From the NCBI GenBank assembly GCA_964016885.1, contig OZ024740.1, positions 75,764,001 through 75,828,000 on the forward strand: a stretch of 64,000 bases of DNA, written 5' to 3'. This document shows, piece after piece, positions 43,119-43,423 of this stretch; the first letter of the stretch is position 1; each line of letters opens with the position of its first letter. This stretch comes from Eledone cirrhosa. Lineage: Eukaryota. The notes under the pieces were generated by a model, which was not told the origin of the DNA, did no database searches, and worked only from the letters and a program-made list of their open reading frames with translations. Position numbers and translations under genes: made by a program.

Positions 43119-43296
43119 ATGCAAATTAGGCTGCTCAGCCGTTAATTTTCATAAGGAAAGTATATACTTTCGAACGTTCAACTATCTGGCAGATGGTAAA
43201 CGGTGCTGATGATAGCTAACAAGCTTGAAACTAGTACATCGTTCCTGTGTCAGTGTTGAACAAAAAGGTGACGTGGTTGCCTTAACACTGTATGGC
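43119..43296 (+). promoter_or_regulatory. Putative snRNA-type promoter: octamer ATGCAAAT plus PSE-like TTGCCTTAAC
   Basis: Octamer at 43119-43126 (also 43637, 44156, 44993); PSE-like element 158 bp downstream at 43277. Confidence 0.5.
43199..43243 (+). ncRNA. Hammerhead ribozyme, satellite copy 2
   Basis: Core identical to copy 1. Confidence 0.85.
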
Positions 43297-43423
43297 ATAA
43301 ATTCAGGCTGTTCGATTTGTTGACAAACAAACGAACAAAGCACGCGTTATAATAAACGTCGGCTAAACTGATGCGTGCATATATGTATGTGTACCTGTAT
43401 TCATATGTGTATGTGTATGTATA

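What the first reader, a model, noticed from the sequence alone, without database searches (positions are those of the whole stretch)
43119..43380. Satellite units carry an snRNA-type promoter geometry straddling the ribozyme
Seen: a perfect octamer ATGCAAAT at 43119, 43637, 44156 and 44993. TTGCCTTAAC lies 158 bp downstream (8/10 to the start of the human U6 PSE, TTACCGTAAC), with a TGACGT site just before it. About 62 nt after it a 10-bp hairpin begins (GCACGCGTTA/TGATGCGTGC), and there is no TATA in between. Known: vertebrate snRNA genes have the octamer near -220 and the PSE near -60, TATA-less versions use Pol II, and newt satellite 2 is driven by such an internal promoter. Inference: the array transcribes itself from ~43339, reads through to the next hammerheads, and each excised monomer contains promoter elements that tandem reinsertion would reconstitute.
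Basis: inference. Interest (0 to 1): 0.8.

Follow-up and report, generated by a model that had tools for sequence, protein, structure and literature searches.

The report
Retrozyme with built-in snRNA-type promoter

Summary
TTGCCTTAAC is a chance-level match (34 such hits in the window, 51 expected). It does not resemble this genome's own U1/U2/U5 promoter core, is lost in the sister family, and is one arm of an RNA hairpin kept there by compensatory changes.

The array is a 519-nt non-LTR retrozyme: type I hammerhead, Penelope-style ends in (TA)n.

A better promoter candidate lies directly upstream of the hammerhead: ATTTAA 43103, octamer 43118, TCAG 43135, TATA 43161. A model trained only on 14 host U1/U2/U5 promoters picks 43135 as the best site in the unit (15 bits; 0 of 97,840 background positions reach it). 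That predicts a start near 43191, not 43339. The octamer 12-mer matches the -78 element of host U6/U6atac/MRP. Other hammerhead families show parts of this layout, including one found without selecting for the octamer.

Against: the octamer also pairs in an RNA hairpin, two families miss the model, and no RNA data were available. Newt satellite 2 is the precedent. The scan reported the same module on other DNA of this genome.

The parts
42589..45493 (+). Tandem array of about 519-nt units (family A), six hammerhead copies visible, interrupted by an N gap at 44296-44495 so the unit count is uncertain; embedded in (TA)n; the first unit starts just after the octamer
43103..43108 (+). ATTTAA, at the position (32 nt before TCAG) of the AATTAA element of host U1/U2/U5 promoters; weak match, 4.1 bits (scored on the second unit's copy)
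43118..43129 (+). TATGCAAATTAG: octamer 12-mer matching the -77..-79 element of host U6, U6atac and MRP promoters (16.9 bits); also the 5' arm of a predicted RNA hairpin to about 43153
43135..43139 (+). TCAGC, at the position of the host Pol II PSE core TCAGT (26 nt before the TATA-like box); weak on its own, 2-3 bits
43160..43167 (+). GTATATAC, TATA-like box; host snRNA genes of both classes have one at about -30
43191..43191 (+). Predicted transcription start (C|A, TATA+30), at the 5' edge of hammerhead stem I; inferred, not measured
43188..43251 (+). Type I hammerhead: stem I arms 43188-43205 and 43237-43251, core CTGATGA 43206, stem II 43214-43225 with U-U at its base, GAAA 43227, palindromic ACTAGT stem III (likely cuts as a dimer), predicted cleavage after 43236
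43251..43290 (+).
43340..43378 (+).
43380..43535 (+). Internal self-complementary TA/TG-rich microsatellite, long predicted RNA stem, variable in length
43530..43599 (+). Tail: the two positions at which insertions end genome-wide (after about 43538 and after 43599; this array ends at the second, 45493); contains a hairpin whose 3' arm is the T4-CA-T7 run

Best explanation
The array is a non-LTR retrozyme whose units carry, immediately upstream of a type I hammerhead, a block laid out like the host's U1/U2/U5 promoters with the host U6/MRP octamer element set into it, and this block likely starts RNA polymerase II near 43191. SHOWN in sequence: the hammerhead with covarying stems; dispersed near-identical copies; two fixed insertion ends with inverted halves in (TA)n; and the positional match of ATTTAA/TCAG/TATA and of the octamer 12-mer to host snRNA promoters. 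INFERRED: the polymerase reads through the unit (no host-type 3' box), neighbouring hammerheads cut out a 519-nt monomer that contains the next unit's promoter, the monomer is circularised, and a Penelope-like reverse transcriptase/endonuclease copies it from the two tail sites into (TA)n, rebuilding promoter-before-ribozyme in each tandem copy. Pol II is favoured over Pol III because the copied RNA must pass the T4-CA-T7 run and because the spacing fits U1/U2/U5, not U6.
For: Host promoters defined here. Pol II genes: AATTAA, then TCAGT 32-34 nt later (-55..-58), then a TATA-like box 25-28 nt later. Pol III genes: TATGSWAATKAG at -77..-79 and TATA at -30. Three-part model from 14 host Pol II promoters (hosts 18-32 bits leave-one-out; five Pol III hosts -0.1 to 5.9): best site in 640 nt of the A unit on both strands is 43135, 15.1 bits, next best 7.8; p=0.005 against 200 shuffles; 0 of 97,840 background positions reach 15.1. 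p<0.05 in 6 of 10 retrozyme-type representatives (A, B1, B2, one of two E copies, G, H) and 0 of 13 other hammerhead-like matches. G and H lack the octamer and came from an octamer-blind search. Family C, found by its hammerhead, shares the 12-mer 12/12 with A but only 15/28 of the spacer, with a TATA-like box at 42 nt. Octamer 66-96 nt before CTGANGA: 37,336 genome matches against 60 for the reversed pattern. Ends: 8 of 9 A loci end at the distal tail site, and 6 of 9 have both sites with an inversion between; 29 of 30 B loci show at least one such end. This matches the two internal priming sites and tail of Penelope-like elements (PMC11167929, PMC8557442).
Against: No transcript evidence at all. 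The TCAG match alone is weak (2.3-2.9 bits in A against 7-16 in hosts), so the score leans on the TATA-like box. C (p=0.32), F (0.20), one E copy (0.13) and D (0.06) miss the Pol II model. The ten representatives are about six lineages, and D, E and F were selected by their octamer. The octamer 12-mer is the 5' arm of a predicted RNA hairpin whose position 10 covaries with its partner, and the TATA-like boxes sit in palindromic hairpins. No host promoter examined combines octamer and TCAG this way; octamer-to-TATA is 41-44 nt against 47-49 in host Pol III genes. The host distal element at about -260 is absent from the unit. An 8-nt deletion in B1 would move the start into stem I. No autonomous partner sharing the tail was identified.
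Confidence: 0.6

Rival explanations
1. The block is not a promoter. Octamer and TATA-like words are kept for RNA folding or protein binding in the circular RNA, or by descent from one ancestor, and transcripts come from host read-through.
For: The 12-mer pairs with a downstream arm in A, B, C, D and F, with T-A versus G-C exchange at position 10; TATA-like boxes lie in hairpins. PMC7761336 states that retrozymes do not seem to harbour promoters. The octamer was the search key for D, E and F.
Against: The 5' arm is nearly invariant while its partner arm varies, including C5, which is unpaired in A, C and D. The words and spacings match host promoters that are not transcribed and fold weakly (-0.8 to -2.9 kcal/mol against -3.1 to -11.9). 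G and H reach host geometry without the octamer.
Confidence: 0.2
2. The block is a compact U6-type (type 3) Pol III promoter. Pol III starts near 43191 and mostly stops at the T run about 390 nt later; rare read-through supplies the mobile RNA.
For: The strongest single match is to the Pol III element (16.9 bits) followed by TATA. In A and B no run of four T lies between the predicted start and the tail T run. In vertebrates a TATA box selects Pol III (PMC1761439, introduction).
Against: Spacing is about 4-6 nt shorter than in all five host Pol III promoters. Host Pol II genes here also have a TATA-like box. The T run is a hairpin arm. Arrays of up to 15 full units in a row end 7 nt beyond the T run, so the template RNA passes it.
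Confidence: 0.15
3. One reading: vertebrate-style distal octamer at -220, PSE at 43277, TATA-less Pol II start at about 43339.
For: The motifs and distances exist; newt satellite 2 is reported to use an snRNA-type Pol II promoter (cited in PMC2220036).
Against: Chance-level match; unlike host promoters; absent from 68 of 83 A/B copies and part of a conserved RNA hairpin.
Confidence: 0.03

Closest known systems
Non-LTR retrozymes of animals (Cervera and de la Pena 2020, PMC7229834; Li et al. 2026, bioRxiv 10.64898/2026.07.22.740005)
   Same: Short non-coding tandem repeats, one type I hammerhead per unit, dispersed, low GC, co-existing with Penelope-like elements; palindromic stem III and U-U at the base of stem II as in axolotl families.
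   Different: Unit of 519 nt with an internal microsatellite; two fixed priming ends mapped; a host-matched promoter-like block, whereas PMC7761336 says retrozymes seem to lack promoters and the 2026 preprint has no hit for 'promoter' in its main text.
Newt satellite 2 (Coats, Zhang and Epstein 1994; paper not held; known here only as cited in PMC2220036)
   Same: Hammerhead tandem repeat reported to be driven by an internal snRNA-type Pol II promoter.
   Different: Here the block follows this host's own snRNA layout (compact, TATA-containing, octamer at -73) and is seen in several diverged families; untested experimentally.
Schistosome hammerhead satellite (Ferbeyre et al. 1998; not held; as cited in PMC2220036)
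   Same: Self-promoted hammerhead repeat.
   Different: Reported as an internal Pol III promoter; this one resembles snRNA upstream promoters.
Penelope-like element pseudo-LTR and tail (PMC11167929, PMC8557442)
   Same: Two internal reverse-transcription starts defining a tail, tandem plus inverted copies, AT-rich or (TA)n targets, hammerhead.
   Different: No ORF; tail about 60 nt rather than 30-40; autonomous partner not identified.

Membership tests
Non-LTR retrozyme | Type I hammerhead in each tandem unit | tested here: met
   Core, stems I-III by pattern and fold; 97.6% of cells paired, one double-sided change in stem I, modest against shuffles, 11/500; the free core position varies in reads; Rfam below threshold
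Non-LTR retrozyme | Short, non-coding, dispersed tandem repeats | tested here: met
   519 nt; 42 matches at 99-100% on 5 contigs from 40 of 1296 candidates scored; only short 125-172 aa stop-to-stop frames on the minus strand, not analysed
Non-LTR retrozyme | Self-cleavage and circular RNA in vivo | not testable with these tools
   No RNA run listed
Non-autonomous Penelope-like element | Two fixed 3' ends (tail), tandem plus inverted structure, microsatellite target | tested here: met
Non-autonomous Penelope-like element | Tail shared with an autonomous element | tested here: inconclusive
   Penelope-like RT and GIY-YIG-like frames occur in fetched loci (judged by motif, not by a family scan), but no clear shared tail
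Host Pol II snRNA promoter (U1/U2/U5) | AATTAA, TCAGT and TATA-like box at 32-34 and 25-28 nt spacing | tested here: met
   15.1 bits, best in unit, 0 of 97,840 background, but below the host range of 18-32
Host Pol II snRNA promoter (U1/U2/U5) | Distal element at about -260 (11 of 19 host promoters) and 3' box | tested here: not met
Host type 3 Pol III promoter (U6/U6atac/MRP) | TATGSWAATKAG element | tested here: met
   16.9 bits
Host type 3 Pol III promoter (U6/U6atac/MRP) | 47-49 nt from element start to TATA | tested here: not met
   43 in A; 41-44 in seven representatives
Any promoter | Initiates transcription at a defined site | not testable with these tools
   No RNA reads available

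The most novel reading that the evidence does not exclude
Retrozyme lineages in this animal have captured the host's snRNA transcription signals and recombined them into a compact hybrid promoter: U6/MRP octamer element on a U1/U2/U5 skeleton, about half a helical turn shorter than U6. It starts exactly at the 5' edge of the hammerhead and reads through, and the same letters also fold inside the circular RNA. Animal retrozymes would then be self-promoting units in general, and comparing these families would expose how polymerase choice is encoded in this host.
Probability: 0.4. Interest if true: 0.65.

Novelty: new variant of a known kind. Interest (0 to 1): 0.45.

Why it matters
How animal retrozymes reach high expression is open: a 2020 review says they seem to have no promoter and rely on read-through (PMC7761336), with newt and schistosome repeats as old exceptions. 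A host-matched promoter block in tens of thousands of copies gives a single predicted start base and a set of natural variants, so the question becomes directly testable. As a by-product the work defines this animal's U6-type and U1-type promoter elements, which are useful for expressing guide RNAs.

Tried and rejected
Rfam at gathering threshold: nothing; sub-threshold miRNA hits come from the microsatellite.

Expression: no RNA holder listed, which says nothing either way. Contigs of four runs of unrecorded kind were laid: deep cover in X1, two contigs in X6, none in X4 or X5; useful only for variants. No read data on starts were obtained.

Considered by eye from recalled consensus motifs and dropped, not tested by tools: twister ribozyme, C/D snoRNA, U7, and tRNA-type B box.

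AATAAA in the conserved loop as a poly(A) signal: possible, but about 29% of depth reads G at its last base and other families were not shown to share it.

T run as terminator: also explained as a hairpin arm.

Fourteen further U6 hits and five further U6atac hits had no promoter elements upstream and look like retrocopies. They, L057/L058 (U6 copies with an insertion in the promoter) and L044 (near-duplicate) were left out of the models. RNase P had TCAGT but an uncertain start and was not used.

Autonomous partner not found.

The first PSE-only model gave weak support (rank 3 of 908 in A); the three-part model was built afterwards, after seeing family G.

Newt and schistosome primary papers not held. 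The supplement of PMC7229834 could not be read and those of the 2026 preprint are closed; either may show promoter motifs. The host's taxonomic group was not determined.

Full report
OBSERVATION. The window holds a tandem array at 42589-45493 inside long (TA)n tracts, with a 200-N gap. The octamer, TGACGT, TTGCCTTAAC and the 10-bp inverted repeat are at the stated places in every complete unit. Alone they are not surprising: 6 octamers against 5.3 expected, four being copies of one unit, and 34 two-mismatch hits to the quoted PSE against 51.4 expected.

WHAT THE REPEAT IS. Each unit has a type I hammerhead (core 43206, GAAA 43227, palindromic ACTAGT stem III, predicted cut after 43236); cut to cut is 519 nt. 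Rfam finds it only below threshold. In ten A/B-type sequences the named stems are 97.6% paired with one double-sided change; 11 of 500 shuffles reach this, which is modest for related sequences. Family C shows a further double change in stem II. The genome search scored 40 of 1296 candidates and returned 42 matches at 99-100% on five contigs. Of nine A loci examined, eight end after CAACTTAT, and six also end about 60 nt earlier on an inverted half, always running into (TA)n. Of 30 loci of sister family B (77% identical), 29 show at least one such end. Penelope-like elements prime at two internal sites that define a tail and leave tandem plus inverted copies in AT-rich targets (PMC11167929, parts 1-2 of 4 read; PMC8557442, passages). 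This fits a non-LTR retrozyme (PMC7229834, parts 2-4 of 6 read; bioRxiv 10.64898/2026.07.22.740005, parts 1-2 of 5 and a term search). Penelope-like coding fragments occur in fetched loci, but no partner with this tail was identified.

HOST PROMOTERS. I fetched U1, U2, U5, U6, U6atac, MRP and RNase P loci. Fourteen distinct U1/U2/U5 promoters share AATTAA, TCAGT 32-34 nt later (-55 to -58) and a TATA-like box 25-28 nt after that. Five distinct Pol III promoters share TATGSWAATKAG at -77 to -79 and TATA at -30. Probable retrocopies, two interrupted U6 copies, one near-duplicate and RNase P were left out. None of the 19 has an octamer near -220 or more than 7/10 to TTGCCTTAAC at -75 to -40.

It scores -5 to -36 bits on the host model. 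It and TGACGT occur in 15 of 83 distinct A/B copies (loci were not a random sample); the others keep the same two-stem hairpin with different letters. The 10-bp hairpin is the local optimum in A but is replaced in B by a stem around the shared TATAATAA loop. The start at 43339 has no support.

THE BETTER CANDIDATE. The 12-mer at 43118 matches the host Pol III element (16.9 bits), with a TATA-like box 43 nt on, 4-6 nt closer than in the hosts. A three-part model trained only on host Pol II promoters ranks 43135 first in 640 nt of the unit on both strands: 15.1 bits, next 7.8, p=0.005 against 200 shuffles; hosts 18-32 leave-one-out; Pol III hosts at most 5.9. No position among 97,840 background positions reaches 15.1; 3 reach 11.8, 20 reach 8.9 and 63 reach 6.7. 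The predicted start is A43191, at the 5' edge of stem I. This model was built after a simpler one gave weak support.

OTHER FAMILIES. An octamer 66-96 nt before the hammerhead core occurs 37,336 times against 60 for the reversed pattern; these are copies of a few families, not independent events. Families A/B, C, D, E and F share 11-12 of 12 octamer-block letters but only 11-15 of 28 spacer letters, with a TATA-like box at 41-44 nt. D, E and F were selected by the octamer; C was not. An octamer-blind search (96,056 matches against 9,139) gave a 311-bp tandem family G and a relative H that lack the octamer yet show AATT, CCAG/TCAG and TATAAG at host spacing. On the Pol II model p<0.05 in 6 of 10 representatives (three of about six lineages) and 0 of 13 other hammerhead-like matches; D gave 0.06, and C, F and one E copy missed.

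AGAINST. The octamer block pairs with a downstream arm, with covariation at position 10, and the TATA-like boxes lie in hairpins, so RNA structure could account for part of the conservation. The block itself stays fixed while its partner arm varies, which favours a sequence constraint as well. The host distal element is absent. B1 has an 8-nt deletion that shifts the predicted start. No RNA run was listed, so transcription is untested.

MECHANISM. Most likely Pol II starts near 43191 and reads through, since no host-type 3' box is present and the copied RNA must pass the T run, which is a hairpin arm. Paired hammerheads would release a monomer holding the next unit's promoter; it would be circularised and copied by a Penelope-like enzyme from the tail into (TA)n. 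All of these steps are inferred from the papers cited. Polymerase choice in animals can depend on a few PSE letters or on TATA (PMC1761439, abstract and introduction), so Pol III remains possible.

NOVELTY. Retrozymes are known. An internal snRNA-type promoter is reported for newt satellite 2 and a Pol III promoter for the schistosome repeat (both seen only as cited in passages of PMC2220036). A review says retrozymes seem to lack promoters (PMC7761336, passages). Searches listed no paper describing this layout; most subscription papers and two supplements were out of reach. Two earlier notes of this scan reached the same reading on other DNA of this genome; I saw them after my own tests and they are not independent evidence. 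Verdict: new variant of a known kind, interest 0.45.

Noticed in passing
window 48413-48655: 3' part and tail of retrozyme family C (about 90% identical to the 468-bp unit in L104), ending in (TA)n with a short inverted piece.
   Followed up: partly
L166 760-1030; L167; L168: Family E carries about three tandem copies of an octamer plus ATCAG module upstream of its hammerhead, like a multimerised promoter element.
   Followed up: partly
L031-L053, about -255 to -286 of U1, U2 and U6 genes: Shared distal motif resembling ACCTCCCT in 11 of 19 host promoters; host Pol II snRNA genes have a TATA-like box at -30 and a downstream AA-CAGA 3'-box-like motif.
   Followed up: partly
L102: The RNase P RNA gene has the Pol II-type AAATCAGTG element upstream, not the U6-type octamer, unlike MRP (L163).
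   Followed up: no
L091 9-1900; L094; L092 5388-7200: Two Penelope-like element families (RT with YVDD, GIY-YIG-like end) within a few kb of family A arrays, with inverted flanking copies; the L091/L094 3' region contains ATTTGCAT.
   Followed up: partly
L199, L201, L207, L230, L233, L239-L242: Several further hammerhead families without the promoter block, ending in (TA)n at two sites and sharing a GCTCTG...GAGC tail hairpin.
   Followed up: partly
window 9995-13099, 33745-36234, 52130-55344, 16411-17907: Multiple LINE copies with endonuclease, reverse transcriptase and a PHD finger just after the RT domain.
   Followed up: no
window 36237-42588 and 45491-50375: Very long (TA)n-derived tracts with strand-biased C or G interruptions flank the array.
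   Followed up: no
run X6 (organism D): A low-depth contig from a different coded organism covers 43000-43313 with 5 differences and 2 gaps; close relative or contamination not resolved.
   Followed up: no
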